From Bryobacteraceae bacterium (lineage in GTDB: Bacteria > Acidobacteriota > Terriglobia > Bryobacterales > Bryobacteraceae), in contig JBKQPG010000044.1 of the NCBI GenBank assembly GCA_052145115.1, positions 2,225-66,224 on the forward strand: a stretch of DNA of 64,000 nt, given 5' to 3'. Position 1 is the first letter of the stretch, and every line of letters begins with the position of its first letter. The notes under the pieces are model-generated. The model ran no database searches. It was not told the origin of the DNA and was given only the letters and a program-made list of their open reading frames with translations. Positions 11,374 to 47,138 of this stretch are shown piece after piece. The position numbers were made by a program, and so were the translations under genes.

Positions 11374-12450
11374 TTAGGAAGAGGCGGGGGATGGGGCGGC
11401 AGCGCCGGCGTCGGCGTCCACAGGGGCCGGGGCCAGCAGGCGCGCTGTGTTGAGGATGCTGGAGACGAGGTGCAGGGCCAGGACGGCGTGGAAGCCAGCG
11501 CCTTCGGAAGCCTCGAACTGCAGCAGCGGGGTGACGGCGAGGGTTTCGAGGGCAATCAGCCAGGCGGGGTCGTTGGAGCAGCCGGGGAACAGGACGGCGT
11601 CGAGGGAGTCGGGGGCGACGGAGCGGGACACGAGGGCGGCGACGGCGCCGCAGAAACCGTCGGCGAAGACGGGCAGACGCGCATTGGCGGCGGCCAGCAG
11701 AAAGCCGGCCATGACGGCCAGATCGAGGCCGCCGAAGCAGCGCACGGCGGCCAGCGGCGAGATGGCGTCCAACTGGTGGCGGATGGCGCCCTGGCTGACG
11801 GCGTTGCGGCGCGGGGCGATGGAGTCGGGGTCGAGGATGTCGTCGAGATAAGTGGTTTCGATGGCCGGCCGGCCGGTGAGAGCGCCCAGGACGGCCGAAG
11901 CGGCGACGCTCGAGCCGGAGCCGAGCTGGGCGATGGCCACGCAGTCGAAGCGGCGGGCGGCGTCGTCGGCCAGGGAAGCGCCGAGGTCGAGCGCGGTGTT
12001 GAGCTGGTCCTCAGTCAGGGCGGCGCCGATGGTGAAGTCGAGCGCGCCATCGCAAACGCGATAGACGTGGGTACCCTGCTCGGCCTCACCGGTCAGGCCG
12101 CAATCAACGACCAGGCGGTCGATGCCGAACTGGCGGGCGAGGATGGAGGCGGGCGAGGCGCCGCGCAGGAAATTGGCCAGGTCGCGGCGGGTGCCGGCGG
12201 GGCCCTCGGCGCCGACGGGCGCGGCGGCGACGGCGTGTTCGGCGCAGATGAGATACAGGCCCAGGCGGGAGCAGGCGGGCAGCGTCTCATTGCGCACCAT
12301 GGCGACGTGCTTGGCGAAGTCCTCCAGACGGCCGAAGCCGCCGGGGAGGGTGGGGATGGAGGCCCAGAAGTCGTTCAGCGCCTGGGCGGCCTGGTCATTG
12401 AAGAGCGGCTGGATGGAGTCCGCGAGTTCGCGGATGCGAGGGGAAATCAT
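11374..12450 (-). CDS. CobT-like protein (nicotinate-nucleotide--dimethylbenzimidazole phosphoribosyltransferase family), divergent
   Basis: Family-like order: PGGFGRLE, ICAEHAV, NFLRGASP, GGLDLAVMAGFLLAAA, VFADGF, EASEGAGF. The canonical GEMGIGNTT is replaced by AQLGSGSSV. Confidence 0.65.
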   Translation of the reverse strand: MISPRIRELADSIQPLFNDQAAQALNDFWASIPTLPGGFGRLEDFAKHVAMVRNETLPACSRLGLYLICAEHAVAAAPVGAEGPAGTRRDLANFLRGASPASILARQFGIDRLVVDCGLTGEAEQGTHVYRVCDGALDFTIGAALTEDQLNTALDLGASLADDAARRFDCVAIAQLGSGSSVAASAVLGALTGRPAIETTYLDDILDPDSIAPRRNAVSQGAIRHQLDAISPLAAVRCFGGLDLAVMAGFLLAAANARLPVFADGFCGAVAALVSRSVAPDSLDAVLFPGCSNDPAWLIALETLAVTPLLQFEASEGAGFHAVLALHLVSSILNTARLLAPAPVDADAGAAAPSPASS

Positions 12451-12492
12451 GGGGATTTGAGTCCTGTCGAGAGGGGGTTTCTATCGATTGTC

Positions 12493-13506
12493 TCAGAGCC
12501 ACAGGCTGCGGCGGCGGCTGCGCAGCAGGGCGATGAAGCAGGGACCGCCGACCAGGGCGGTGAGGACGCTCACGGGAAGCTCGACGGCGAAGAGGCTGCG
12601 AGCGGCGGTGTCGCAGACGGCCAGGAAAGCGGCGCCGAAAAGGAACGAAGCGGGCATCAACAGACGATGGTCGGAGCCGAGCTTGAGGCGCAGAGCGTGG
12701 GGCACGACCAGGCCGACGAAACCGATGGGGCCGGTGACGGCAGTGACGGCGGCAGTCAGAAAAGAACCGGCGATGTAGCCGGCCAGCAGCAGGCGCGCCG
12801 GAGAGACGCCGCGGGCGGCGGCCCATTCCTCTCCCACGGCCATGAGGTTCCAGCGGCGGGCGGCGAGGCACAGCGCCAGCGAAAGCGGCACAACGGCGAT
12901 GGCGAGATAGACGAGAGTGCGCGTCTCGGGGGGATCGATGTTGCCCATGAGCCAGTGGACGATAGCGAAAGACTGGCGCAGGCTGGCGAGGTTGTGCAGC
13001 AGCATGATGAGCGAGGTGACGATGCCGTTGACCATGACGCCGCCGAGCAGCAGAGTGAACGAAGAGAGGCGGCGGCCCTCACTGGCAACGGCGAGCACGA
13101 TGACGAGAGTGACGGCCGCGCCGGCCATCGATGCGGCCCACAGGCCGGGCAGGCCGGCCACGGTCTGGAGGCCGAAGCAGATGGCGACGACGGCGCCGAG
13201 CGAGGCGCCGCCGGAGACGCCGAGGGTGTAGGGCGTGGCCAGAGGATCGCGCAGCAAGGACTGGAAGAGACAGCCGGCGATGGAGAGCGCGCCGCCGCAC
13301 AGCAGCGAGAGCAGCAGGCGCGGCAGGCGGACGCCGAAGAAGACGCGGCTGTCGGGCCACTCACCGGCGAAGGCGCGGCTGAGGCTGACATGGGAAGGGC
13401 CGAAGAGCGGGCACAGCAGCGCGCACAGCAGGACGGCGCAGAGGCCCAATGCCAGGACCAGGGCCAGGCGGCGGGGGGTGACGGGATGGGCCTCGGCGGG
13501 ATGCAT
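12493..13506 (-). CDS. FecCD/BtuC-family ABC permease (iron-siderophore/corrinoid type)
   Basis: 337 aa polytopic protein. TPYTLGVSGGASLGAV and the C-terminal GPIGFVGLVVPH motifs are typical of FecCD. Confidence 0.85.
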   Translation of the reverse strand: MHPAEAHPVTPRRLALVLALGLCAVLLCALLCPLFGPSHVSLSRAFAGEWPDSRVFFGVRLPRLLLSLLCGGALSIAGCLFQSLLRDPLATPYTLGVSGGASLGAVVAICFGLQTVAGLPGLWAASMAGAAVTLVIVLAVASEGRRLSSFTLLLGGVMVNGIVTSLIMLLHNLASLRQSFAIVHWLMGNIDPPETRTLVYLAIAVVPLSLALCLAARRWNLMAVGEEWAAARGVSPARLLLAGYIAGSFLTAAVTAVTGPIGFVGLVVPHALRLKLGSDHRLLMPASFLFGAAFLAVCDTAARSLFAVELPVSVLTALVGGPCFIALLRSRRRSLWL

Positions 13507-13525
13507 GGTTTAAGCGCGCATGGGG

Positions 13526-14296
13526 TCAGGCGTCATAAGCGATAAACGGGCGGCCGCCGGCGCGCTGCACCCACTCGGCGCGGACGTGGAAGACGGCCTG
13601 GATGCGGTCGGTGGAGAGGGCCTCGCAGGGGCCGGCATCGGCGACGACGCGGCCTTTCTGAAGTACGACGACGCGGTCGGAGTAGGCGGCGGCGAGGTTG
13701 AGATCGTGGGTGGCGGCGATGACCAGGATGCCGTCCTGGCTGAGGCGCCGCAGGAGCGAGTAGATGGCGAACTGATGGGACAGGTCGAGGAAGGTGGTGG
13801 GCTCGTCGAGCAGCAGGACCTGGGGTTCCTGGGCCAGGGCCGAAGCGAGAACGACGCGCTGGCGTTCACCGCCGCTGAGGGCGCGGAAATCGCGGTGGGC
13901 GAACTCGCCCATATCGGTGAGCTCCATGGCGTGGCGGGCGGCGTCGCGATCGCGGCCGGATTCGAAGAAGCCGCCGGCGTGGGGCGTGCGGCCCATGTAG
14001 ACGACCTCGCGGGCGGTGAACGGGAAATCGAGGCGCAGGCTCTGGGGCACGAAAGCGACGCGGCGGGCGAAATCGCGGCGGCGCCAGCGCGGGGACTCGA
14101 TTCCGAAGAGGCGGCAGGAACCGGTGTAGCCGGGGCGCAGGCCGGCCATGATGCCGAGCAGGGTGGATTTGCCGGCGCCGTTGGGACCGGCCAGGGCGAC
14201 CATTTGGGGAGCCTCGAAGCGCAGGTTGATATCCGCGAGCACGGGCGTGGAGCCGTAGATCATGCCGACGGAGACGGTTTCGAGAATCGGGTTCAT
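13526..14296 (-). CDS. ABC transporter ATP-binding protein (BtuD/FepC type)
   Basis: Walker A GPNGAGKST, signature LSGGERQRVVLASAL, Walker B LLLDEPT. 4-nt ATGA overlap with the upstream gene. Confidence 0.9.
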   Translation of the reverse strand: MNPILETVSVGMIYGSTPVLADINLRFEAPQMVALAGPNGAGKSTLLGIMAGLRPGYTGSCRLFGIESPRWRRRDFARRVAFVPQSLRLDFPFTAREVVYMGRTPHAGGFFESGRDRDAARHAMELTDMGEFAHRDFRALSGGERQRVVLASALAQEPQVLLLDEPTTFLDLSHQFAIYSLLRRLSQDGILVIAATHDLNLAAAYSDRVVVLQKGRVVADAGPCEALSTDRIQAVFHVRAEWVQRAGGRPFIAYDA

Positions 14297-32727: not shown

Positions 32728-34584
32728 ATGAGCCCGCGACGCCTGTTATGTGTCCTGCTCCTGGTTTCCAGCTCGCTGCTCGGCCAAGGCTTGGAATGGA
32801 TCCGGGCCAATTACGCCCAGCAGGAGTTCCGCATCCCGATGCGCGACGGCGTGCGATTGTACACGCTGGTCTACACGCCTAAGGTCACTGCGCACGCAGT
32901 TCCGATTCTGCTGGAACGCACGCCCTACGGCGCCGGCCCGCGCGGCGAGAACAGCTATCGTTCCACGCTGGGGCCTTGCGCGGCGCTGGCCCGCGCCGGC
33001 TATATCTTCGTGTACCAGGACGTGCGGGGCCGCTACCGCAGCGAAGGCACGTTCGTCGAGATGCGGCCGCAGCTCAACGGCCGGCATGGGCCGCGGGATA
33101 TCGACGAGAGCACCGACACCTACGACACCATCGATTGGCTGCTCAAGAACATCCCCGGCCACAATGGCCGCGTGGGCCTGTACGGCACCTCCTACCCCGG
33201 CTTCTACGCCGCGGCGGGGCTGCTCGCGGGGCATCCGGCCTTGAAGGCGGTCTCTCCGCAGGCGCCGATGGTCGACCTGTTCCTGGGCGATGACTATGCC
33301 CATAACGGCGCGTTTTTCCTGGCCGCCAATTTCGGCTTCTACTGGTTCTTCAACATGACCAGCACCGCGCATCCCGACGAGCGTCGGGCGCGCTTCGATT
33401 ACGGCACCCGCGACGGCTATGCGTTCTATCTCGGCATGGGTCCGCTCTCCAATGCCGAGGAGCGCTATTACCAGCACCGCAATCCGTATTTCAGCGACCT
33501 GCTGGAGCACACATCCTACGACGAGTTCTGGCGCTCGCGCAGCCTGGAGCCGCATCTGCACGACATTCAGCCCGCCGTGCTGGACGTGGGCGGATGGTTC
33601 GACGCCGAGGATCTGCAGGGGCCGCTGCGGCTGTACCGCGCCGCCTCCACGCGCAGCCCGCGCTCGCCCGTCGTCCTGGTGATGGGCCCGTGGATGCATG
33701 GCGGCTGGCACGACGAGGGGGTCGACCACCTGGGCCCCGTTCAGTTCGGCCAATTGCCCGCGGAGTACTTTGAGAACTCCATCGAGACGCGGTTCTTTGA
33801 GAAGTGGCTGCGCGACGGCGAGGACCCGAAGCTCCCCGCCGCGTGGGTGTTCGAGACCGGCACCAACCGCTGGCGTCAATTCGCCGCCTGGCCGCCGCCG
33901 GCCGCGCATCGCCGGACCCTATATCTGCGCCAGGGCGGCGGGCTGGCCTTCGATCCACCGCGCGAGTCCGCTGGTTTCGACGAGTACGTCAGCGACCCCG
34001 CCCGGCCGGTCCCGTTCACGTCTTTCATAGCCCTCGGAATGGTTCCGGAGTACATGGTGGACGACCAGCGCTTCGCCGCCCGCCGGCCCGACGTTCTGGT
34101 TTACCAGACCCCGCCGCTCGACACCGCCCTCACGCTGGCCGGACCGCTCGGCGTGCGTCTGCAGGCCTCCACCTCCGGCAGCGACTCGGACTGGGTGGTG
34201 AAGCTGATCGACGTCTATCCCGGCGATACGCCCAACCCGTCGCCGAACCCGACCCGGGTGCAGTTGGGCGGCTATCAGCAACTGGTGCGCGGCGAGCCCT
34301 TCCGCGGCCGCTTCTGGAAGAGCTTCGAGCATCCCCAGCCGCTGCCTGCCAACCAGTTCGTCGAGATCGACTACGACATGCCGGACATCTTCCACACCTT
34401 CCGGCCGGGCCATCGCATCATGGTCCAGGTGCAGAGCTCCTGGTTCCCGCTGGTGGACCGCAATCCGCAGAGGTTCGTGCCGAGCATCCCCTTCGCCAAA
34501 CCTGAGGATTTCGTGCCCGCCACCGAGCGGATCTCCCGTTCAGCGGCGGCTCCGAGCCGAATCGAAGTGCTCGTTCTGGAGTAA
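32728..34584 (+). CDS. CocE/NonD-family hydrolase (S15 X-Pro dipeptidyl-peptidase-like), secreted
   Basis: 618 aa. RIPMRDGVRLYTLVYTPK, ERTPYG, GTSYPGFY (nucleophile elbow), and a C-terminal beta-sandwich ending HRIMVQVQSSWFPLVDRNPQ. Confidence 0.85.
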   Translation: MSPRRLLCVLLLVSSSLLGQGLEWIRANYAQQEFRIPMRDGVRLYTLVYTPKVTAHAVPILLERTPYGAGPRGENSYRSTLGPCAALARAGYIFVYQDVRGRYRSEGTFVEMRPQLNGRHGPRDIDESTDTYDTIDWLLKNIPGHNGRVGLYGTSYPGFYAAAGLLAGHPALKAVSPQAPMVDLFLGDDYAHNGAFFLAANFGFYWFFNMTSTAHPDERRARFDYGTRDGYAFYLGMGPLSNAEERYYQHRNPYFSDLLEHTSYDEFWRSRSLEPHLHDIQPAVLDVGGWFDAEDLQGPLRLYRAASTRSPRSPVVLVMGPWMHGGWHDEGVDHLGPVQFGQLPAEYFENSIETRFFEKWLRDGEDPKLPAAWVFETGTNRWRQFAAWPPPAAHRRTLYLRQGGGLAFDPPRESAGFDEYVSDPARPVPFTSFIALGMVPEYMVDDQRFAARRPDVLVYQTPPLDTALTLAGPLGVRLQASTSGSDSDWVVKLIDVYPGDTPNPSPNPTRVQLGGYQQLVRGEPFRGRFWKSFEHPQPLPANQFVEIDYDMPDIFHTFRPGHRIMVQVQSSWFPLVDRNPQRFVPSIPFAKPEDFVPATERISRSAAAPSRIEVLVLE

Positions 34585-40083: not shown

Positions 40084-41253
40084 TCACAGCGGCATTTCAG
40101 GCCGGCATTCCGCAGCGGCGTTGGGCTTGGGATTTTCAGGCTGGAATTCGATGCCGGCGGGGCCGGGAACCGGCGGCGCGGCGGACTGCCCGAGGCGCCG
40201 GAGAGCCCAGCGGGCGTGTTCGGCGACGCCGGGATCGGAAGAGGCGGCGAGGCGCTCGAGAACGGGGCGGCAGCGCGGGTCGCCGGAGTTGCCCATGACG
40301 GTGGCGGCGTTGCGGAGCAGGCCGGAGCGGCGGGCGCGCCAGAGCGGAGTGCGGCGGAAGCGGGCGCGGAATTCGGTGTCGGTAAGGGAGGCGATGGCGA
40401 CGGGGTCGGGGCGGGCGTGGAGGGGCTGGAAGGCGGGTTCCGCGGTGACGGGCGCGCGGGAGTTCCAGGGGCAGACGTCCTGGCAGATGTCGCAGCCGAA
40501 GAGCAGGTCGCCGGTGGGGGCGCGCAGGGGCTCGGCCGTGGGGCCGCGCTGCTCGATGGTGAGGGTGGAGATGCAGAGGCGGGCGTCGAGCTGCCACCTC
40601 GGGCCGGAGGGGCCGGGATGGGGAACCAGGGCCTGGGTGGGGCAGGCGTCGATGCAGCGGCGGCAGACGCCGCAGCGGCCGGGTGGGGACGAGTCGGGCG
40701 GGAGGGCGACGGAGACGAGGATCTCGCCCAGGAATAACCAGGAGCCGAGGGGCTGGTTGATCAGGCAGGTGTTCTTGGCGATCCAGCCGAGGCCGGCGGC
40801 CTGGGCATAGGCGCGCTCGAGCAGCGGCGCGGTGTCGACGCAGAGGCGGGCGTCGAAGGCACCCCAGGCTGCTTGCAGGGCGTCGAGGAGGCGTTGCAGG
40901 GCGGCGCGGAGGACGTCGTGGTAGTCGCCGGAGCCCCAGGCGTAGCAGGAGACTCTTCCGGAGCCGGGCGCGGGTTCCGGCTCTTTTGTTTTGTATAACT
41001 TGCCGACGCAGAGGACGCTTTTCGCCGTGGGCAGGAGCTGGCGCGGGTCGGCGCGGGCGGCGAGGCGATGGTCGGCCAGGTAGTCCATCGGGCCAGCTAG
41101 GCCGGCCTCAACCCATTGCCGATAAAAGACAAACTTGGACAGGGGGAGGGCCGGGGCGACGCCGGCGAGCTCGAAGCCGCAGGCGCGGGCGAGTTCAATG
41201 AACCGTCGCCGGGTGGGGGTCTCGCGCTGCGGCGCTATCTCCATGCAAATCAT
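40084..41253 (-). CDS. queG: tRNA epoxyqueuosine(34) reductase
   Basis: Two ferredoxin-type clusters (CGVCRRCIDACP and CDICQDVCPWN), CISTLTIE, and C-terminal HEAT-like repeats. 389 aa. Confidence 0.85.
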   Translation of the reverse strand: MICMEIAPQRETPTRRRFIELARACGFELAGVAPALPLSKFVFYRQWVEAGLAGPMDYLADHRLAARADPRQLLPTAKSVLCVGKLYKTKEPEPAPGSGRVSCYAWGSGDYHDVLRAALQRLLDALQAAWGAFDARLCVDTAPLLERAYAQAAGLGWIAKNTCLINQPLGSWLFLGEILVSVALPPDSSPPGRCGVCRRCIDACPTQALVPHPGPSGPRWQLDARLCISTLTIEQRGPTAEPLRAPTGDLLFGCDICQDVCPWNSRAPVTAEPAFQPLHARPDPVAIASLTDTEFRARFRRTPLWRARRSGLLRNAATVMGNSGDPRCRPVLERLAASSDPGVAEHARWALRRLGQSAAPPVPGPAGIEFQPENPKPNAAAECRPEMPL

Positions 41254-41427
41254 GCTACTACGCTCCAGGGCCTAGTACTGGGGGTGCCGTTCGGCGCGGG
41301 ATATCACCAATCGGGGTCTATTCCTCCCCATTCGACCAGAGTTGGTATTCCCTGGCGGTCGATTTGCGTAAAATTCAGAGGAGAAGAAATCCGTCCGGAT
41401 CATGGTGGTGAGGGAGCCGTTTGAATC

Positions 41428-43551
41428 ATGCATAAACCTGTAAAGTATGTCGAGAAGGCTGCGTCCGTGGCGGCGAACGTCGTGTGGCAGGCCTTTGACA
41501 CACTGAACCAGATCAAGCAGAACCCGGGCTTTACGCCGAAGTGGTCGGAACAGCCGCTACTGAAATCGTACGAAAAGATGAAGCCCAAGCTGGGCTGGCC
41601 GCGGACGACGGATTCGCTGTGCCCCAAGTGCATTCCGGAGATCCGCCAGCAGGTGATTGACGGCAAGAAGGAGCTCAGCATTCTGGTGAACGAGCGGCCG
41701 GGCGAAATCAAGGCCCAGATCATCGAGCGCGACGGCAAGATCCTGATGGTGAAGGAGTGCCCGATTCACGGCCGCTTCGAGGACGTGATGGCGATCGACA
41801 CGGCGTTTTTCAAGCACCTGGAAGAGGTCTTCCCGGGGCGCGACATTCGCGCCCACAACGACGCCGACCTGCATCATCACGGCTCATCGACGATCACGCA
41901 CGGGCGCGGCGCGGTGCTGACGATCGACCTGACCAACCGCTGCAACATGATGTGCGACCCGTGCTTCATGGACGCCAACCAGGTGGGGTTCGTACACGAG
42001 CTGAGCTGGGAAGACATCAAGACGATGCTCGACAACGCGCTGCGGATCAAGCCGCACCGCCAGATGTCGGTGCAGTTTTCGGGCGGCGAGCCGACGCTGT
42101 CGCCGTATTTCCTGGACGCGCTACGGTACTGCGTGCAGGTGGGCTACAAGTCGACCCAGGCGGCGACCAACGGGATCGAGTTCGCCAAGTCGAAGGAGTT
42201 TTGCGAGAAGGCGGCCGAGGCCGGCCTGCGATACGCCTACCTGCAGTTTGACGGGATCGGCAACGCGGCCAATTCGCACCGCAAGGTGGGCAACCTGTTC
42301 GACGTGAAGCTGCGGGCGATCGAGAACCTGCACTCGGCGGGGGTGGACATTGTGCCGGTGATCACGCTGATCAACGGCATCAACAACGAGCAGGTGGGAC
42401 GGATCATCCAGTTCGCGCTCGACAACCCCAAGAAGATCAGCTTCCTGAGCTTCCAGCCGGTGTCGTTCACGGGGCGCGATGAGGCCGTCACCGACGAGCG
42501 CCGCCAGGCCCAGCGCTACACGCTTTCGCACCTGGCGCACGACGTCAAGAAGCAGACCGGGCTGGGCGAGCCGACGCGCGACTGGTACCCGATATCGTTC
42601 ATGGGCACGTTCTCCGACTGGGCCGACCTGGTGCACGGGCCGGCGGCCGACTGGGGCCACCTGAGCTGCGGCTGCCATCCCAACTGCGGCGTGGGCATGG
42701 GCGTGATGATCGACAAGGAAACCAAGGAAGCGGTGCCGGTGACGGCGTTCCTGAACGGCGACCGGCTGGCGCGCGACATTCAGCGGATCAACGATGCGGC
42801 GCGCGGACGGTTTCTCTCGGTGGCGGGCATGGCGCTGTCGCTGATGCGCAACTACAACCCGTTCACCGCGCCCAAGCACTTCAAGCTGGCCGACCTGCTG
42901 CAGAAGTTCGACAAGACCTTCGGCGCCACGGGCCAGACCTATGGCAAGACCGGCGCGGGGCGCACCAAGGAGGACATCGAGCGGCGGCGCAAGGACCGCT
43001 GGAATTTCCTGTTCATCGCCGGGATGTGGTTCCAGGATCTGTTCAACTACGATTTCCGGCGCACCGAGCAGTGCATCATTCCCTATGCCACTCAGGAGGG
43101 CGAGATCAGCTTCTGCGCTTACAATACCGGCGTCGGCTGGCGCAATATCGTCGAGAAGATGCACATGACTGCCACTTTGACCAAATGGTACGAGGAGCAC
43201 GGGCGGCACGAGATCTTCGCCGGCGGCAAGAAAGTGGCGCTGAATTCCACCGAGCATGCGCTGGTGCTGCGCGAGGAGATCGTCACCACAGAGGTGCAGC
43301 ACGACCTGGACAAGCTGGGGATCGCCAAGACGGCGCGCGAGGAGAAGATGCGGGCGCGCGACGAGCGGCTGAAGAAGATGCAGGATGAGGAGAACGCCAA
43401 GATGCTGGCGCTCTACAAGAAGCACATCCTGAAGGAGCCCGAGTTGAACCTGGTTCAGATTGCCGGACCCAACGGCGGGATCCAGGCCGCTGCCAAGCCG
43501 GCTGCGGCGGAGACCGAACAGCGCGAGGAGATCGGCAGCTTCGGCGACTGA
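41428..43551 (+). CDS. Radical SAM enzyme, Tes/GDGT-MAS (MJ0619-like) family candidate
   Basis: N-terminal SLCPKC...ECPIHG knuckle, CNMMCDPC (Cx3Cx2C), QFSGGEPT, ATNG, YLQFDG, FQPVSFTG, then CGCHPNC and CIIPYAT..EISFCAYN. 707 aa with a Lys/Glu-rich tail. Confidence 0.75.
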   Translation: MHKPVKYVEKAASVAANVVWQAFDTLNQIKQNPGFTPKWSEQPLLKSYEKMKPKLGWPRTTDSLCPKCIPEIRQQVIDGKKELSILVNERPGEIKAQIIERDGKILMVKECPIHGRFEDVMAIDTAFFKHLEEVFPGRDIRAHNDADLHHHGSSTITHGRGAVLTIDLTNRCNMMCDPCFMDANQVGFVHELSWEDIKTMLDNALRIKPHRQMSVQFSGGEPTLSPYFLDALRYCVQVGYKSTQAATNGIEFAKSKEFCEKAAEAGLRYAYLQFDGIGNAANSHRKVGNLFDVKLRAIENLHSAGVDIVPVITLINGINNEQVGRIIQFALDNPKKISFLSFQPVSFTGRDEAVTDERRQAQRYTLSHLAHDVKKQTGLGEPTRDWYPISFMGTFSDWADLVHGPAADWGHLSCGCHPNCGVGMGVMIDKETKEAVPVTAFLNGDRLARDIQRINDAARGRFLSVAGMALSLMRNYNPFTAPKHFKLADLLQKFDKTFGATGQTYGKTGAGRTKEDIERRRKDRWNFLFIAGMWFQDLFNYDFRRTEQCIIPYATQEGEISFCAYNTGVGWRNIVEKMHMTATLTKWYEEHGRHEIFAGGKKVALNSTEHALVLREEIVTTEVQHDLDKLGIAKTAREEKMRARDERLKKMQDEENAKMLALYKKHILKEPELNLVQIAGPNGGIQAAAKPAAAETEQREEIGSFGD

Positions 43552-43580
43552 GCGGGCGCGAACATTCACATGGCGAAGGA

Positions 43581-43609
43581 ACGCCCGGCGGCAAGGCCGG
43601 GCGTTTTTG
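43581..43609 (+). terminator. Intrinsic terminator after the radical SAM gene
   Basis: Perfect 9-bp stem ACGCCCGGC/GCCGGGCGT, 6-nt loop, followed by TTTTTGTT. Confidence 0.75.
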
Positions 43610-43655
43610 TTGCCGCGGCCGGGAATGTGGCGGGCGGCGGCGCGGGCAGGCGCGT

Positions 43656-46600
43656 TCAGGCCTGCAACACTTCGCGCACTTTGGCCGCCAAGGCGGCGGG
43701 GGTGAAGGGTTTGTCCAGGTGGTGGAAGTTGTCGCCCGCCAGGGGTTCCTCCAACTGGGCGCCGGCGGCATAGCCGGAGACGTACAGGACCTTCACCGCC
43801 GGGCGCTGAGCCCGCAGCTCGCGGGCCAATTGCGGCCCCGTCATGCCGGGCATCAAAACGTCTGAAACGAGTATCTCGATGGCGCCGGAATGGGCGGCGG
43901 CGACGGCCAACGCCTCGGCCCCGCTGGCGGCTTCCAGCACCGTGTAGCCGTGGCCCCGCAGAATCGTTGCGCAGAGCTCGCGCACCTGCGGCTGATCCTC
44001 CACCAGCAGCGCCGTCTCGCGTCCGGCCGAGGCGACATGCATGGGCGCGGCTTCCGGTTCCGGCGCTGCCGTGCCCGTCGCGCGCGGCAGGAAGATGCGG
44101 AAGCAGGCGCCGGCTCCGGGCGCGCTCTGCACTTCGATCCAGCCGTTGCTCTGATGGACGATGGCGTACACCGTGGAGAGGCCGAGTCCCGTGCCCACGG
44201 TCTGGGGCTTAGTGGTGAAAAACGGCTCGAAGACGTGGCGCAGGGTGTCGGCGTCCATGCCGACCCCGGTATCGGAAACGGCCAGGCGGACGAAATCGCC
44301 GGGCCGCGCCCCGACGTTGCGCGCCGCCTGCGCCGCATCGACCTGCAGGTTGCGGGTTTCGATGGTCAGCCGCCCCCCGGCGCCCATGGCGTCCCGCGCG
44401 TTGACCGCCAAGTTCATCAGGATTTGCAAGATCTGCGTCGGGTCGGCCAGGACGTCGCCCAGCCGCGGGTCGAGCACGGTTTCAAATTCGACAGATTCGC
44501 CGATCAGGCGCTCGAGCATCCGGCGCGACTCCAGCACCAGGTGGTTCAGGTTGATCTGTTTCGGCTCGATCACGCGTTTGCGGCTGAAGGCGAGCAACTG
44601 CCGGACCAACTCCGCCGCCTGCTGGCCCGCCGTCCGGATGCTGGCCACCTCGGCCCGCATCGGGTCGCCGGCCGGCAGCGCCGAGAGCAGCATCTCGCAG
44701 TAGCCGTTGATGACGGTCAGATGGTTGTTGAAGTCGTGGGCCACGCCTCCGGCGAGGCGGCCCACGCTCTCCATTTTCTGCGCCTGGAGGAACTGCAGTT
44801 CCAGCCGGGCCCGCTCTTCCTCGGCCTGCTTGCGCTGCGTGATGTCCATGAAAAAGACCAGACGTGCGGCCTGCCCATCCATCTCGACCGGCACGGCGGA
44901 GACCTCCACGTCAAACGTCGTCGCATCCAGCCGTACATAGCGCTCCTCCATGGTCGGAGAAGAAGTGTCCGGGCCGTAGCCCGCGCGCTCCCGGACAGCC
45001 TCGTGGCAGTCGGGATGGATCAAGCTGTAAATCGGCTGGCCCACGACGTCGTCCAGGGAAGACGCCCGGAACATGCGCAGCCCGGCGGGGCTCATGTAGA
45101 CCACGCGCGCTTCGACGTGGACCAGGATGCCCACGGGCAGGCTCTCCACCAACTGGCGGAAACGCTTCTCGCTGACGCGCAGCGCCTCCTCGGCCTGCTT
45201 GCGTTTGCGCTCCTCCTCCAGCCGTCCCACGGCGTAGGAGATGTCGGCCGCCATCTCCTCGACCAGCGCGACCTCCTTGGCGTCGAAGAAGTGCGGTTCG
45301 GCCGCGAAAATCGCCAGGACCCCAACCACGGCTCCCTCCCCGCTGAGCGGCACGCAGACCACCGAACGCAGCCCGAACGAGCAGGCCCGAACTTGCCACG
45401 GCGTGCGATCGGGATCCGTAGCCAGGTCGTCGACGACGCTCACGCGTCCGGTGAGGAAGGCCCGGGCGGTGGGATGATCGGCCGGCGCGCCTGGTTCGGC
45501 GGAGAGCGGCAGGGGGCTCGGTGAGTATTCAGAAACTTTCGCGCAGGCCACCGGGCAGAGGAAGGTCCGGGCCTCGTCCGGCAGGCCGATCACGACCAGA
45601 CTGAAACCGCCCTCCTCCACGCCGATCCGGCACACGCTGTCGAAAACCTCCTGTTGCGTGGCGGCCTTGGCGATCGCCTGGTTGTTTGCGCTGAGCACAG
45701 CGTAAAGGCGGTTGGCGTTTTCCAGTTGCATGCGCTGCCAGTTGCGCTCGGTGATGTCGCGGACGATCACCTGGTAATATGTTCTGCTATCCACTACGAT
45801 CGGGCGGACGTTGGTTTCGACCGGAAAGACCGACCCGTCCTTGCGCGCCTGTTGCGTCTCGAACAGCAGCGCCGATTCCGACCGCACCCGCCGCCACTGT
45901 TCCTGGAACGCAGCGCGCCCTTCCGCGCTGCGCAACGCCGCCATATGCAGGTCCAATAACTCGTCGCGGGAGTAACCGTACATCTCCAGCGCCCTTTCGT
46001 TGGTCTCCAGAATCCGGCTGTCCTCATCCACAAGCAGGATCGCGTCCAGGGCCGAGCGGCTGAGGTAGTTGTAGTGACTCGCGAGCACCTCCTTTTCCAA
46101 CTCGGCTTTGTGCCGCGTCTCCAGGAATCGCAGATGCTGCAGCCTCCACAGAGAGGCGACGCCCAGGCCGGCCGCCCCGATCAGCAGCAGGATGACGATC
46201 ACAATCGGAATGGCGCGCTGGCGGATCGGCCCTTCAATGCGCGCCAGGGGAATCCTGGAAATCAGCAGCCACTCGGACTCGGGCAGAGCGCGCACGACGG
46301 CCATGATCGGCCGCCCCATTGGGTCCACTCCCGACACCAGTCCTCGCTGCCCCAGAATGGCTTTGACGGCGACGACTTTGGTACGGCTCAGCGGAATGTG
46401 CAGCAGCTGGCGGGCGACTCCTTTTTCCGCCAGCCAGCCCAGCAGCAGGGCTTCGTCACCTGCGCGGCGAACCAGCACCGTCTCCCCTGCGCTGACGGGC
46501 CCGAGTGGCCGGTCCAGAATGGGGAAAAAAGTCCGGTCGGGATCGATCCCCAAGGAGAAAACACCGAAGGGTTCGCCCTCCGCCTTGAGCCGCAGCGGAA

Positions 46601-47138
46601 CGTTCAAGCCCAGGTGGAGCTTGCCGCCGCGGCTGTCCGCGTGCAAATCGCGCAGCAAGGCGAGTTTGGCGCCCATGGCCTGCTCCACCATCTCGCGGAA
46701 TTGCGTCGCGTCGCTGTACGCACCGCCGGTGTGTGCCATCAGTTTTGCATGGCGGTCGAACAAAAATGCGCTGGCATAGCGCGAACCTGCGCACAGCGTC
46801 TCCATCCAATGCACAACCGCCTGTTTCTGTTGCGGCGCAGCCCGGCCCTGGGCGACCGCGCGCAGGGCGTTCATCATGGGCCTGTTGGCGTTGACGATTC
46901 TGGCGTCCTCGAAGCGCTCATCCGACCACGTCTGAAGCTGGCTCAGCTTCAGGTCCGCCACGCTGGTCAGCTGGTCGCGAACCTGCCGCTCCGCGGCCTC
47001 GCGCATCTGCCGGTAGGTGAAATAGCCCGCCACGCAGACGGCCGCGGCCGTCGCCAGGAAGATCGCCAGCATCCAGCGGGAGATGCGCTGGTAATACGAA
47101 TCCGAGGGCATGACATGCACCAGACGGACGGGATCCAA
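43656..47138 (-). CDS. Hybrid sensor histidine kinase/response regulator (periplasmic sensor, PAS-GAF-PAS, HisKA, HATPase, REC)
   Basis: Two TM segments bracket a roughly 270-aa outer domain. H-box [13 protein letters not shown] boxes ([22 protein letters not shown]). C-terminal REC LLVEDQP...[11 protein letters not shown]. Confidence 0.9.

What the first reader, a model, noticed from the sequence alone, without database searches (positions are those of the whole stretch)
41428..43551. Bacterial homolog of the archaeal tetraether lipid synthase (Tes/GDGT-MAS) family
The 707-aa radical SAM protein carries these motifs in order. First, an N-terminal Cys knuckle (SLCPKC ... ECPIHG). Then the Cx3Cx2C cluster CNMMCDPC, followed by QFSGGEPT, ATNG, YLQFDG and FQPVSFTG. 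Last come two further Cys groups (CGCHPNC; CIIPYAT..FCAYN). This motif order is what I recall for MJ0619/MA_1486-type enzymes, the radical SAM tetraether (GDGT/macrocyclic archaeol) synthases, which carry extra Fe-S/rubredoxin-like sites. In a probable acidobacterium, such a gene is a candidate for making membrane-spanning (brGDGT-type or iso-diabolic-acid-type) lipids, whose bacterial enzymology is still poorly resolved. It is about 200 aa longer than the archaeal enzymes as I remember them, with a charged Lys/Glu-rich tail (REEKMRARDERLKKMQDEENAK...). It stands alone, with its own intrinsic terminator.
Basis: partly seen in the sequence, partly recalled or inferred. Interest (0 to 1): 0.7.

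Follow-up and report, generated by a model that had tools for sequence, protein, structure and literature searches.

The report
Divergent long Tes-like lipid radical-SAM enzyme
This acidobacterial gene encodes a real but divergent relative of the archaeal enzyme that fuses lipid tails into membrane-spanning lipids; such homologs were already published as candidates for bacterial brGDGT or iso-diabolic-acid synthesis, but this is the less-noticed long paralog, which lacks one iron-sulfur cluster, and its activity is still untested.

Summary
It is a single-gene unit with its own terminator, in a Bryobacteraceae (Acidobacteriota) genome.

It is a true homolog of Tes/GDGT-MAS. GDGT-MAS is the best PDB match by sequence (E = 4e-62) and the only whole-protein match by fold (TM 0.78-0.79). 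It is not the canonical enzyme:
- It scores 315 bits against NCBI's Tes model (cut-off 450).
- It falls on the non-canonical side of a 100%-bootstrap split.
- It lacks the three cysteines of the N-terminal auxiliary [4Fe-4S] cluster.
- It carries a 56-aa N-terminal extension and a conserved ~117-aa charged tail.

The radical SAM cluster, the rubredoxin site, the C-terminal cluster (with the Met439 and Tyr459 equivalents) and the SAM-lid residues are all conserved.

Related Acidobacteria also carry a canonical ~545-aa Tes. The window protein matches the second S. usitatus homolog (Acid_2410, 714 aa), listed in a 2022 supplement. The long type is 73-93% identical across Terriglobia, where the neighbouring QueG is 52-59%.

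Most likely function (about 0.5): radical tail-to-tail coupling of iso-C15 lipid chains. The idea was published in 2022 and remains unproven.

The parts
41410..41416 (+). Probable ribosome-binding site GAGGGAG, 11 nt before the ATG
   Evidence: Read directly from the sequence. The start codon is supported by orthologs that align from residue 1.
41428..43551 (+). CDS of the 707-aa long-type Tes-like radical SAM protein (the stop codon is included)
41434..41505 (+). N-terminal amphipathic helix (aa 3-26) within a 56-aa extension that MJ0619 lacks. It may be an in-plane membrane anchor.
   Evidence: AF2 predicts helix 3-26. Hydrophobic moment is 0.50 and no transmembrane segment is present. Region 1-57 is 69% conserved across 239 orthologs.
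41599..41793 (+). Rubredoxin-like zinc-ribbon domain (aa 58-122) with ligands C65, C68, C111 and H114. The loop is X42 where MJ0619 has X20.
   Evidence: Pfam PF23545 at 3.6e-13. C111/H114 map to MJ0619 C33/H36. All four ligands are invariant in both paralog types.
41845..41913 (+). His-rich segment (aa 140-162, IRAHNDADLHHHGSSTITHGRGA) occupying the position of the lost [Fe4S4]N site
   Evidence: MJ0619 C73/C77/C80/H83 align to D147/H151/S154/T157. Relative to the short type's CPxxCGxCxxH there is a 6-residue deletion. H143, H149, H151 and H158 are at least 90% conserved.
41914..42477 (+). Radical SAM core (aa 163-350) with the CX3CX2C motif at C172/C176/C179 and SAM-lid residues Q343/S346/R350
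   Evidence: Pfam PF04055. MJ0619 C98/C102/C105 and Q268/S271/R275 map to identical residues. The region is 89% conserved.
42640..43197 (+). C-terminal auxiliary-cluster and lipid-pocket domain (aa 405-590). Ligands are C420, C549 and C563 with M533 and Y553; C414 and C416 are additional cysteines.
   Evidence: MJ0619 C338/M439/C455/Y459/C470 map to identical residues. They are invariant in both paralog types. Residues 531-590 are 98% conserved.
43198..43548 (+). Clade-specific C-terminal tail (aa 591-707): a conserved segment, then a charged helix at 636-666, a variable Ala/Pro-rich linker, and a terminal ...G-D motif
   Evidence: AF2 predicts helix 636-666 and low confidence elsewhere. Conservation is 69%, 62%, 31% and 47% for the four parts. 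Canonical Tes proteins have 0-52 residues beyond Q590. No Pfam family matches.
43580..43611 (+). Intrinsic terminator: a 10-bp G+C-rich stem, a 6-nt loop and UUUUUGUU
   Evidence: MFE -32 kcal/mol for the 51-nt stretch 43570-43620, whose longer predicted stem contains this hairpin; z = -3.73.

Best explanation
The gene encodes the 'long' paralog of the tetraether synthase (Tes/GDGT-MAS) radical SAM superfamily. This is a distinct, mostly or wholly acidobacterial clade. It corresponds to Acid_2410 of Solibacter usitatus, not to the canonical Tes (Acid_5929).

Shown here:
- It has the GDGT-MAS fold.
- It keeps the radical SAM cluster, the rubredoxin-type iron site and the SAM-binding lid.
- It keeps the C-terminal [4Fe-4S] site with its Met and Tyr. 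In GDGT-MAS this cluster holds the first lipid radical as a sulfur-carbon intermediate.
- It has lost the surface-exposed N-terminal auxiliary [4Fe-4S] cluster.
- It has gained an amphipathic N-terminal helix and a conserved charged C-terminal tail.

Inferred: it works like Tes. Reductive cleavage of SAM gives a 5'-deoxyadenosyl radical, which abstracts a hydrogen from the terminal methyl of a lipid chain. The radical is parked on the C-terminal cluster. A second SAM activates a second chain, and the two carbons are joined. The likely substrates are glycerolipid-bound iso-C15 chains. The product would be the 13,16-dimethyl-octacosane (iso-diabolic) backbone of acidobacterial membrane-spanning tetraesters and brGDGTs. 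The N-terminal helix would hold the enzyme on the membrane surface. The role of the tail is unknown; it may recruit a partner or an electron donor.
For: Homology and fold:
- NCBIfam's best family is Tes, at 7.5e-94 over residues 61-580.
- The best PDB sequence match is 7TOL at 3.8e-62.
- In Foldseek, 7TOM/7TOL score E = 1e-27, TM 0.78-0.79 and about 550 aligned columns. The next hit, MoaA, scores 2.5e-6 and covers only the radical SAM core.

Catalytic residues named in Lloyd 2022 (PMC9433317) are conserved. These are C33/H36, C98/C102/C105, Q268/S271/R275, C338, M439, C455, Y459 and C470. They are invariant in both paralog types.

Selection: the protein is 75-83% identical in genome pairs where QueG is 52-59%. 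Identity is 73-100% over 239 orthologs, and the C-terminal cluster region is 98% conserved.

Distribution: at least 596 hits in GTDB species genomes. These include cultured Acidipila rosea. An Edaphobacter MAG also carries it.

Literature:
- Iso-diabolic acid makes up 20-40% of the fatty acids in cultured subdivision 1 and 3 strains (PMC13274423; PMC6252331).
- Mss is absent from the Acidobacteria examined (PMC13159169).
- E. aggregans makes iso-diabolic acid and brGDGT-Ia and has a single Tes homolog at 32% and 4e-61 (PMC8941075). Those numbers match the long type (Acid_2410: 30.1% and 4e-62).
Against: - No bacterial Tes homolog has been shown to be active (PMC11868695; PMC13459092).
- A distant Tes homolog from T. 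ethanolicus gave no membrane-spanning lipid when expressed in E. coli (bioRxiv 2022.04.21.487849).
- The protein fails the curated Tes cut-off. It lies outside the clade of every characterised enzyme.
- It lacks one of the four GDGT-MAS metal sites.
- Genomes that have it can also carry a canonical Tes, which could be the real coupling enzyme.
- Other branches of its clade have lost the C-terminal cluster ligands, so chemistry in this clade is not uniform.
- There is no genomic linkage to lipid genes.
- The AF2 model is only moderate (pLDDT 63, pTM 0.71). I could not inspect the lipid tunnels.
- The link to E. aggregans rests on matching published numbers, not on its sequence.
Confidence: 0.5

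Rival explanations
1. It is a Tes-like radical SAM enzyme that acts on membrane lipids but carries out a different step from the primary tail-to-tail coupling. In this reading the co-resident canonical Tes does the primary coupling. The long type might perform the second, ring-closing coupling (brGTGT to brGDGT). It might act on ester-bound rather than ether-bound substrates. It might make another C-C or C-S link on alkyl or hopanoid chains. It could also be an oxygen-tolerant isoenzyme.
For: - Both paralogs coexist in S. usitatus.
- They lie 2-6 kb apart in two MAGs.
- Both are under selection, which suggests they are not redundant.
- The long type lacks the surface-exposed [Fe4S4]N cluster and has clade-specific extensions. 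This fits a changed electron route, substrate or partner.
- S. usitatus accumulates brGTGTs as well as brGDGTs (PMC10087280).
Against: - A single archaeal Tes performs both couplings (PMC8941075, PMC9433317).
- E. aggregans is reported to have only one homolog yet makes both iso-diabolic acid and brGDGT-Ia.
- The protein has no cobalamin-binding or methyltransferase domain, so methylation is unlikely.
- Nothing in the sequence identifies an alternative substrate.
Confidence: 0.3
2. It acts on a non-lipid substrate. Examples are the pterin methylation implied by the JGI label '7,8-dihydro-6-hydroxymethylpterin dimethyltransferase' (HMPTM), or a TrsS-like reaction.
For: - JGI annotations of many orthologs use the HMPTM name.
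- The Pfam N-terminal domain is named after HMPTM.
- TrsS is the second-best NCBIfam family at 204 bits.
- Very high conservation would also suit a housekeeping cofactor enzyme.
Against: - The HMPTM assignment for MJ0619 could not be reproduced by Lloyd et al., who showed the enzyme is GDGT-MAS (PMC9433317).
- Methanopterin is an archaeal and methylotroph cofactor; this point rests on my background knowledge.
- The TrsS score is far below its 490-bit cut-off and below the Tes score.
- The C-terminal lipid-pocket and cluster domain aligns along its whole length with GDGT-MAS.
Confidence: 0.08
3. It is a catalytically degenerate or redundant duplicate of Tes with no independent function.
For: - It fails the equivalog cut-off and has lost one Fe-S site.
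- Sister branches of its clade (P0136, P0147, P0187, P0145) have lost C-terminal cluster ligands or the radical SAM motif.
Against: - All remaining catalytic ligands are invariant.
- It is 73-100% identical to 239 orthologs.
- It evolves much more slowly than its neighbours.
- Homologs number more than 8000, and some 90%-identity clusters hold more than 2000 members.
- It has its own ribosome-binding site and terminator.
Confidence: 0.04

Closest known systems
GDGT-MAS / Tes of archaea (MJ0619, PDB 7TOL/7TOM; MA_1486; NCBIfam NF045702)
   Same: - Same overall fold (TM 0.78-0.79), at about 29-32% identity.
- Same rubredoxin-type C-X2-C...C-X2-H site and CX3CX2C radical SAM cluster.
- Same SAM-lid residues Q/S/R.
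- Same C-terminal [4Fe-4S] ligands, with the labile Met and the invariant Tyr.
   Different: - No [Fe4S4]N cysteines; a conserved His-rich segment with a 6-residue deletion sits in their place.
- A 56-aa N-terminal extension with an amphipathic helix.
- A rubredoxin loop of X42 instead of X20.
- Additional cysteines C414 and C416.
- A conserved tail of about 117 aa.
- 315 bits against a 450-bit cut-off, and a separate clade with 100% bootstrap support.
- A bacterial host with fatty-acid lipids rather than isoprenoid lipids.
Canonical bacterial Tes homologs (S. usitatus Acid_5929, 545 aa; K. versatilis homolog; NCBI 'tetraether lipid synthase Tes [Bryobacteraceae]')
   Same: - Same superfamily and the same host lineages.
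- Same invariant ligands apart from [Fe4S4]N.
- The same published, untested hypothesis of brGDGT or iso-diabolic-acid synthesis.
   Different: - The short type keeps CPxxCGxCxxH, passes the Tes cut-off (557-593 bits) and groups with MJ0619.
- It is only 32-36% identical to the window protein.
- It lacks the long tail.
- It was the homolog used to pick S. usitatus for culturing (bioRxiv 2022.04.07.487437).
S. usitatus Acid_2410 (Q025C7, 714 aa), the second 'Tes homolog' in Halamka et al. 2022, Table S6
   Same: - Same length class (697-724 aa).
- Same level of similarity to archaeal Tes (30.1% and 4e-62, against 3.8e-62 for the window protein versus MJ0619).
- Same order, Bryobacterales.
- It is very probably the ortholog.
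   Different: I did not have its sequence, so orthology is inferred from length, scores and taxonomy. No paper in the searchable library discusses it in its main text.
Mss, the membrane-spanning lipid synthase of Thermotoga and Thermoanaerobacter (Sahonero-Canavesi 2022)
   Same: It is a radical SAM enzyme shown to couple two fatty-acid tails into diabolic or iso-diabolic acids. That is the reaction proposed here (PMC13159169).
   Different: - It is a different radical SAM family.
- Mss homologs were not found in the Acidobacteria examined, and they work only anaerobically.
- I had no Mss sequence, so I made no direct comparison.

Membership tests
Tes / GDGT-MAS (NF045702 equivalog; MJ0619, MA_1486) | Radical SAM CX3CX2C cluster motif | tested here: met
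   C172/C176/C179 align to MJ0619 C98/C102/C105. Pfam PF04055 scores 2.6e-19.
Tes / GDGT-MAS (NF045702 equivalog; MJ0619, MA_1486) | N-terminal rubredoxin-type iron site C-X2-C...C-X2-H | tested here: met
   The ligands are C65, C68, C111 and H114. PF23545 scores 3.6e-13. C111/H114 align to C33/H36. All four are invariant. The loop is longer, X42 against X20.
Tes / GDGT-MAS (NF045702 equivalog; MJ0619, MA_1486) | N-terminal auxiliary [4Fe-4S] cluster (C73, C77, C80 and a His) | tested here: not met
   There is no Cys between residues 111 and 172. The aligned residues are D147/H151/S154/T157, and the whole long clade has a 6-residue deletion here. Caveat: P0242 scores 584 bits as Tes and also lacks these cysteines, so the feature is not universal in the family.
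Tes / GDGT-MAS (NF045702 equivalog; MJ0619, MA_1486) | C-terminal auxiliary [4Fe-4S] site with the labile Met439 and the invariant Tyr459 | tested here: met
   C420, C549, C563, M533 and Y553 align to C338, C455, C470, M439 and Y459. They are invariant in both paralog types. This is a sequence-level test only; metal content was not measured.
Tes / GDGT-MAS (NF045702 equivalog; MJ0619, MA_1486) | SAM-binding lid residues Q268, S271 and R275 | tested here: met
   Q343, S346 and R350 are identical, within the conserved FQPVSFTGR motif.
Tes / GDGT-MAS (NF045702 equivalog; MJ0619, MA_1486) | Whole-protein fold like 7TOL | tested here: met
   Foldseek gives E = 1e-27, TM 0.78-0.79 on the target and 549-556 aligned columns. 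The next hit is 21 orders of magnitude weaker. The model is of moderate quality.
Tes / GDGT-MAS (NF045702 equivalog; MJ0619, MA_1486) | Score above the curated equivalog cut-off (450 bits) | tested here: not met
   The score is 315.1 bits. The closest 50%-identity representative, P0121 (62% identical), scores 299 bits. Short-type bacterial proteins score 557-593 bits.
Tes / GDGT-MAS (NF045702 equivalog; MJ0619, MA_1486) | Placement inside the clade of characterised enzymes | tested here: not met
   A neighbour-joining tree (489 columns, 100 bootstraps) puts MJ0619 and all short types on one side. The long type and other N-cluster-less proteins are on the other side, with 100% support.
Tes / GDGT-MAS (NF045702 equivalog; MJ0619, MA_1486) | Catalysis of Csp3-Csp3 coupling of two lipid-chain termini | not testable with these tools
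   This needs expression or in vitro assays with LC-MS. No bacterial homolog had been tested as of 2025-2026.
TrsS radical SAM (seleno)protein (NF045646) | Score above the curated cut-off (490 bits) | tested here: not met
   The score is 204 bits and covers only residues 93-378.
HMPTM (7,8-dihydro-6-hydroxymethylpterin dimethyltransferase; JGI label) | Pterin methyltransferase activity of the founding member MJ0619 | not testable with these tools
   Lloyd et al. could not corroborate this activity and reassigned MJ0619 as GDGT-MAS (PMC9433317). I regard the label as outdated.
Mss (bacterial membrane-spanning lipid synthase) | Sequence homology to T. maritima or T. ethanolicus Mss | not tested
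The literature reports no Mss homologs in the Acidobacteria examined.

The most novel reading that the evidence does not exclude
The long Tes paralog that lacks the N-terminal cluster, and not the canonical short Tes, is the general membrane-spanning-lipid (iso-diabolic acid) synthase of aerobic Acidobacteria. On this reading, loss of the surface-exposed [4Fe-4S] cluster and gain of the membrane helix and tail are adaptations. They let this oxygen-sensitive chemistry run in aerobes. This would explain why iso-diabolic acid is nearly universal in subdivisions 1 and 3. It would also explain why stringent searches found 'Tes homologs' in only 3 of 14 producers and found no Mss. It would give geochemists the right marker gene for brGDGT-precursor producers in soils.
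Probability: 0.3. Interest if true: 0.8.

Novelty: new variant of a known kind. Interest (0 to 1): 0.45.

Why it matters
brGDGTs and their iso-diabolic-acid precursors underlie widely used palaeotemperature and pH proxies. The acidobacterial enzyme that joins the two alkyl chains has still not been demonstrated. Surveys that look for 'Tes homologs' with identity or E-value thresholds treat the family as one thing. This analysis shows that Acidobacteria carry two sharply separated paralogs:

- a canonical Tes;
- a long, very highly conserved variant that lacks one Fe-S cluster.

The long variant scores close to commonly used thresholds (about 30% identity, about 1e-60). It may therefore be counted inconsistently.

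If the long type is the coupling enzyme, or one of two with different substrates, marker-gene surveys of brGDGT producers would need to target it. It would also be a natural test of what the N-terminal cluster of GDGT-MAS is for. If it is not the coupling enzyme, a very abundant and strongly conserved soil-bacterial radical SAM enzyme still lacks a function.

Tried and rejected
- The consensus terminator and promoter scan found no + strand terminator. Direct reading and folding showed a strong one. I found no sigma-70-like promoter on the + strand.
- I looked for a conserved operon or partner gene in 80 related loci. Only queG recurs, in 14 of 80, so context gives no functional clue.
- Pfam scans of most called genes in the window (1-14.3 kb and 18.5-64 kb) found no lipid-pathway genes such as PlsA/Ger, Grs or elb. 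Four small ORFs at 14.5-18.3 kb and two at 62 kb were not scanned.
- I tried to get isolate names for long-type carriers from cluster members and encoding contigs. These returned mostly unnamed or MAG records. The only cultured carrier I could name is Acidipila rosea.
- Table S21 of Sahonero-Canavesi (which 3 of 14 strains) and Chen et al. 2025 (GCA) are not held in the library. I know their content only through citing papers.
- A search for Acid_2410, Acid_5929 or their UniProt ids in main texts found nothing.
- The HMPTM and TrsS readings were rejected.
- Rfam and tRNA scans of the window found nothing.
- The first tree script timed out. I reran it with a faster distance routine.
- I did not use the second structure job.
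Full report
**1. The observation**

The ORF at 41428..43551 on the + strand encodes 707 aa from an ATG start.

| Motif | Residues |
|---|---|
| SLCPKC | 63-68 |
| ECPIHG | 110-115 |
| CNMMCDPC | 172-179 |
| QFSGGEPT | 216-223 |
| ATNG | 246-249 |
| YLQFDG | 271-276 |
| FQPVSFTG | 342-349 |
| CGCHPNC | 414-420 |
| CIIPYAT | 549-555 |
| FCAYN | 562-566 |
| Lys/Glu-rich tail | 637-658 |

A GAGGGAG ribosome-binding site lies 11 nt upstream of the start. About 30 nt after the stop codon there is a G+C-rich hairpin followed by UUUUUGUU. The 51-nt stretch 43570-43620 that contains it folds with an MFE of -32 kcal/mol, z = -3.7 against shuffles. The consensus terminator scan missed it.

The gene diverges from queG (40084-41253, -) and converges on a PAS/GAF hybrid histidine kinase (43656-47138, -). 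Pfam scans of the called genes at 1-14.3 kb and 18.5-64 kb found no lipid-pathway gene. There is no Rfam family and no tRNA in the window.

A 100% identical protein is labelled 'MAG: radical SAM protein [Bryobacteraceae bacterium]'. The 'probable acidobacterium' is therefore correct.

**2. What it is: homology**

- Pfam finds a radical SAM domain (168-330, 2.6e-19) and the 'HMPTM' zinc ribbon (58-122, 3.6e-13).
- The best NCBIfam family is the tetraether lipid synthase Tes equivalog NF045702. It scores 7.5e-94 and 315 bits over residues 61-580, which is below the curated cut-off of 450.
- The best solved structure by sequence is GDGT-MAS (7TOL), at E = 3.8e-62 over residues 93-589. The next match, MoaA, is at 1.6e-6.
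- An AlphaFold2 model built on a 32-sequence alignment is of moderate quality (pTM 0.71, mean pLDDT 63). Its core is confident; the metal loops and the tail are poor.
- With that model, Foldseek returns 7TOM/7TOL at E = 1e-27, TM 0.78-0.79 on the target and about 550 aligned columns. The next hit is 21 orders of magnitude weaker and covers only the radical SAM core.

Homology to Tes/GDGT-MAS is secure.

**3. Metal sites**

Lloyd et al. (PMC9433317) describe four cofactor sites in MJ0619. I rebuilt MJ0619 residues 15-493 from the HMMER alignment, and the paper's numbering was reproduced. The mapping is below.

| Site in MJ0619 | MJ0619 residues | Window protein | Status |
|---|---|---|---|
| Rubredoxin-type iron | C9, C12, C33, H36 | C65, C68, C111, H114 | Kept |
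| [Fe4S4]N | C73, C77, C80 and a His | D147, H151, S154, T157 | Lost |
| Radical SAM cluster | C98, C102, C105 | C172, C176, C179 | Kept |
| SAM lid | Q268, S271, R275 | Q343, S346, R350 | Kept |
| [Fe4S4]C | C338, C455, C470 | C420, C549, C563 | Kept |
| Labile Met and invariant Tyr | M439, Y459 | M533, Y553 | Kept |

There is no cysteine at all between residues 111 and 172.

**4. Two paralogs in Acidobacteria**

Halamka et al. (PMC10087280, Table S6) list two S. usitatus homologs of MA_1486:

| Locus | Length | Identity to MA_1486 | E-value |
|---|---|---|---|
| Acid_5929 | 545 aa | 40.2% | 1.4e-139 |
| Acid_2410 | 714 aa | 30.1% | 4.2e-62 |

The window protein matches Acid_2410 in length class, in similarity to archaeal Tes, and in host order. 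That equivalence is my inference; I did not have the Acid_2410 sequence.

The exhaustive representative search and a search seeded with a short-type representative gave the following:

- Bryobacteraceae and Solibacter also carry proteins of about 545 aa, which NCBI names 'tetraether lipid synthase Tes' (P0345, P0372).
- These short-type proteins pass the Tes cut-off: P0185 scores 557 bits and P0181 scores 593.
- They keep a CPxxCGxCxxH motif.
- All long-type proteins have a 6-residue deletion at that position and a conserved L-H-x-H-G-S-S-T segment.
- The two types are 32-36% identical to each other. They share every other ligand as an invariant column.

A neighbour-joining tree (489 columns, 100 bootstraps) separates the two groups with 100% support. 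One side holds MJ0619 and the short types. The other side holds the long type and other proteins that lack the N-terminal cluster. Within that second clade:

- the Terriglobia long type keeps all remaining ligands;
- P0136, P0147 and P0187 have lost the C-terminal cluster ligands;
- P0145 has lost the radical SAM motif.

One caveat applies. P0242 scores 584 bits as Tes yet lacks the [Fe4S4]N cysteines. Losing that cluster does not by itself exclude Tes function.

In two MAGs, a canonical Tes (578 and 589 bits) lies 2.2 kb and 6 kb downstream of the long-type gene. This shows directly that both paralogs coexist in one genome.

**5. Clade-specific features and selection**

Across 239 full-length orthologs, identity to the window protein is 73-100%, with a median of 79%.

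| Region | Residues | Conservation |
|---|---|---|
| N-terminal extension | 1-57 | 69% |
| His-rich replacement segment | 123-162 | 85% |
| Radical SAM core | 163-350 | 89% |
| C-terminal cluster region | 531-590 | 98% |
| Tail, first part | 591-634 | 69% |
| Tail helix | 635-668 | 62% |
| Tail linker | 669-697 | 31% |

- In the His-rich segment, H143, H149, H151 and H158 are each at least 90% conserved.
- The terminal G-D of the protein is conserved.
- Residues 3-26 form a predicted amphipathic helix with hydrophobic moment 0.50.
- There is no transmembrane segment.
- The tail helix (636-666) is highly charged and not amphipathic.

In the same genome pairs, the neighbouring QueG is 52-59% identical while this protein is 75-83% identical. 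The best 80 are almost all labelled Acidobacteriota: Bryobacterales, Terriglobales, and some Blastocatellia and Vicinamibacteria MAG labels. They include cultured Acidipila rosea DSM 103428. An Edaphobacter MAG also carries the protein. Some 90%-identity clusters hold more than 2000 members. No neighbouring gene is conserved; queG recurs in 14 of 80 loci.

**6. How it most likely works**

What is shown is a GDGT-MAS fold with the radical SAM cluster, the SAM lid, the rubredoxin site and the C-terminal cluster with its Met and Tyr. In GDGT-MAS the C-terminal cluster carries the sulfur-carbon intermediate between the two hydrogen abstractions (PMC9433317).

What is inferred is the same chemistry on bacterial substrates. 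Two SAM-dependent activations of terminal methyl groups would join two glycerolipid-bound iso-C15 chains. The product would be the iso-diabolic backbone of tetraesters and brGDGTs.

Supporting context from the literature:

- Iso-diabolic acid makes up 20-40% of fatty acids in cultured subdivision 1 and 3 strains.
- Mss is absent from the Acidobacteria examined, and 'Tes homologs' were found in only 3 of 14 producers under stringent criteria. The long type scores close to such thresholds.
- E. aggregans makes iso-diabolic acid and brGDGT-Ia, and is reported to have a single homolog at 32% and 4e-61. Those are long-type-like values.

Evidence against:

- No bacterial Tes homolog has been shown to be active.
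- A distant homolog from T. ethanolicus was negative in E. coli.
- The canonical paralog could be the real coupling enzyme where both are present.
- The link between K. versatilis tetraesters and its Tes homolog (Chen 2025, seen only through citing papers) concerns a strain whose top homolog is the short type.

I put about 0.5 on tail-to-tail coupling of lipid chains. I put about 0.3 on a related but distinct lipid-modifying step or a division of labour with the short paralog. The remaining weight is small and goes to a non-lipid substrate or a degenerate copy.

**7. Comparison with what is known, and novelty**

The idea that acidobacterial Tes homologs make brGDGTs is published (Zeng 2022; Chen 2022; Halamka 2022). 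The long paralog itself appears in a supplementary table.

I did not find the following in the searchable literature:

- the explicit split into two clades;
- the loss of the [Fe4S4]N site;
- the conserved extensions;
- the unusually strong conservation and breadth of the long type.

I classify it as a new variant of a known kind. Interest is moderate. It sharpens a long-standing question into a clean two-gene experiment, but it is not a surprise to specialists.

Noticed in passing
L011:12337-14019 and L012:16163-17872: In two Terriglobia MAGs a canonical short Tes (560 and 569 aa; 578 and 589 bits against NF045702) lies 2.2 kb and 6 kb downstream of the long-type gene on the same strand. Each is preceded by a divergent PPK2 (polyphosphate kinase 2) gene.
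   Followed up: partly
window 40084-41253 (-): An epoxyqueuosine reductase QueG homolog diverges from the Tes-like gene across a 174-nt intergenic region. This adjacency recurs in 14 of 80 related loci and is the only recurring neighbour.
   Followed up: partly
window 43656-47138 (-): A 1160-aa hybrid sensor histidine kinase (PAS, GAF, PAS, HisKA, HATPase and receiver domains) converges on the Tes-like gene. The two genes end about 100 nt apart, either side of the terminator region. It is not conserved next to the gene in other genomes.
   Followed up: no
proteins P0136, P0147, P0187, P0145 and P0149: Other members of the clade that lacks the N-terminal cluster have lost the C-terminal cluster Cys, Met and Tyr. 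P0145 has lost the CX3CX2C motif itself. These may be degenerate or neofunctionalised Tes-like proteins; their taxonomy is unknown.
   Followed up: no
protein P0242: This 510-aa protein scores 584 bits as canonical Tes and groups with MJ0619, yet it lacks the [Fe4S4]N cysteines. The N-terminal auxiliary cluster is therefore not universal even within canonical Tes.
   Followed up: partly
L082:1976-5715 and L083:743-3255: In another long-type locus, NifU_N and IscA-like Fe-S assembly genes and an S15 X-Pro dipeptidyl peptidase lie just upstream of the gene. An S15 peptidase is also present in the window at 32728-34584 (+).
   Followed up: no
window 11374-14296 (-): A CobT-like phosphoribosyltransferase (DBI_PRT), a FecCD-type permease and an ABC ATPase sit in a row. 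This looks like a corrinoid or siderophore uptake and remodelling cluster. No cobalamin riboswitch reached the Rfam threshold.
   Followed up: no
window 42121-43569 (-) and other antisense ORFs: Long antisense ORFs, for example one of 482 aa opposite the Tes-like gene, are listed mechanically in this 65% G+C DNA. Their amino-acid composition is Arg-, Ala- and Gly-rich and I take them to be artefacts.
   Followed up: partly
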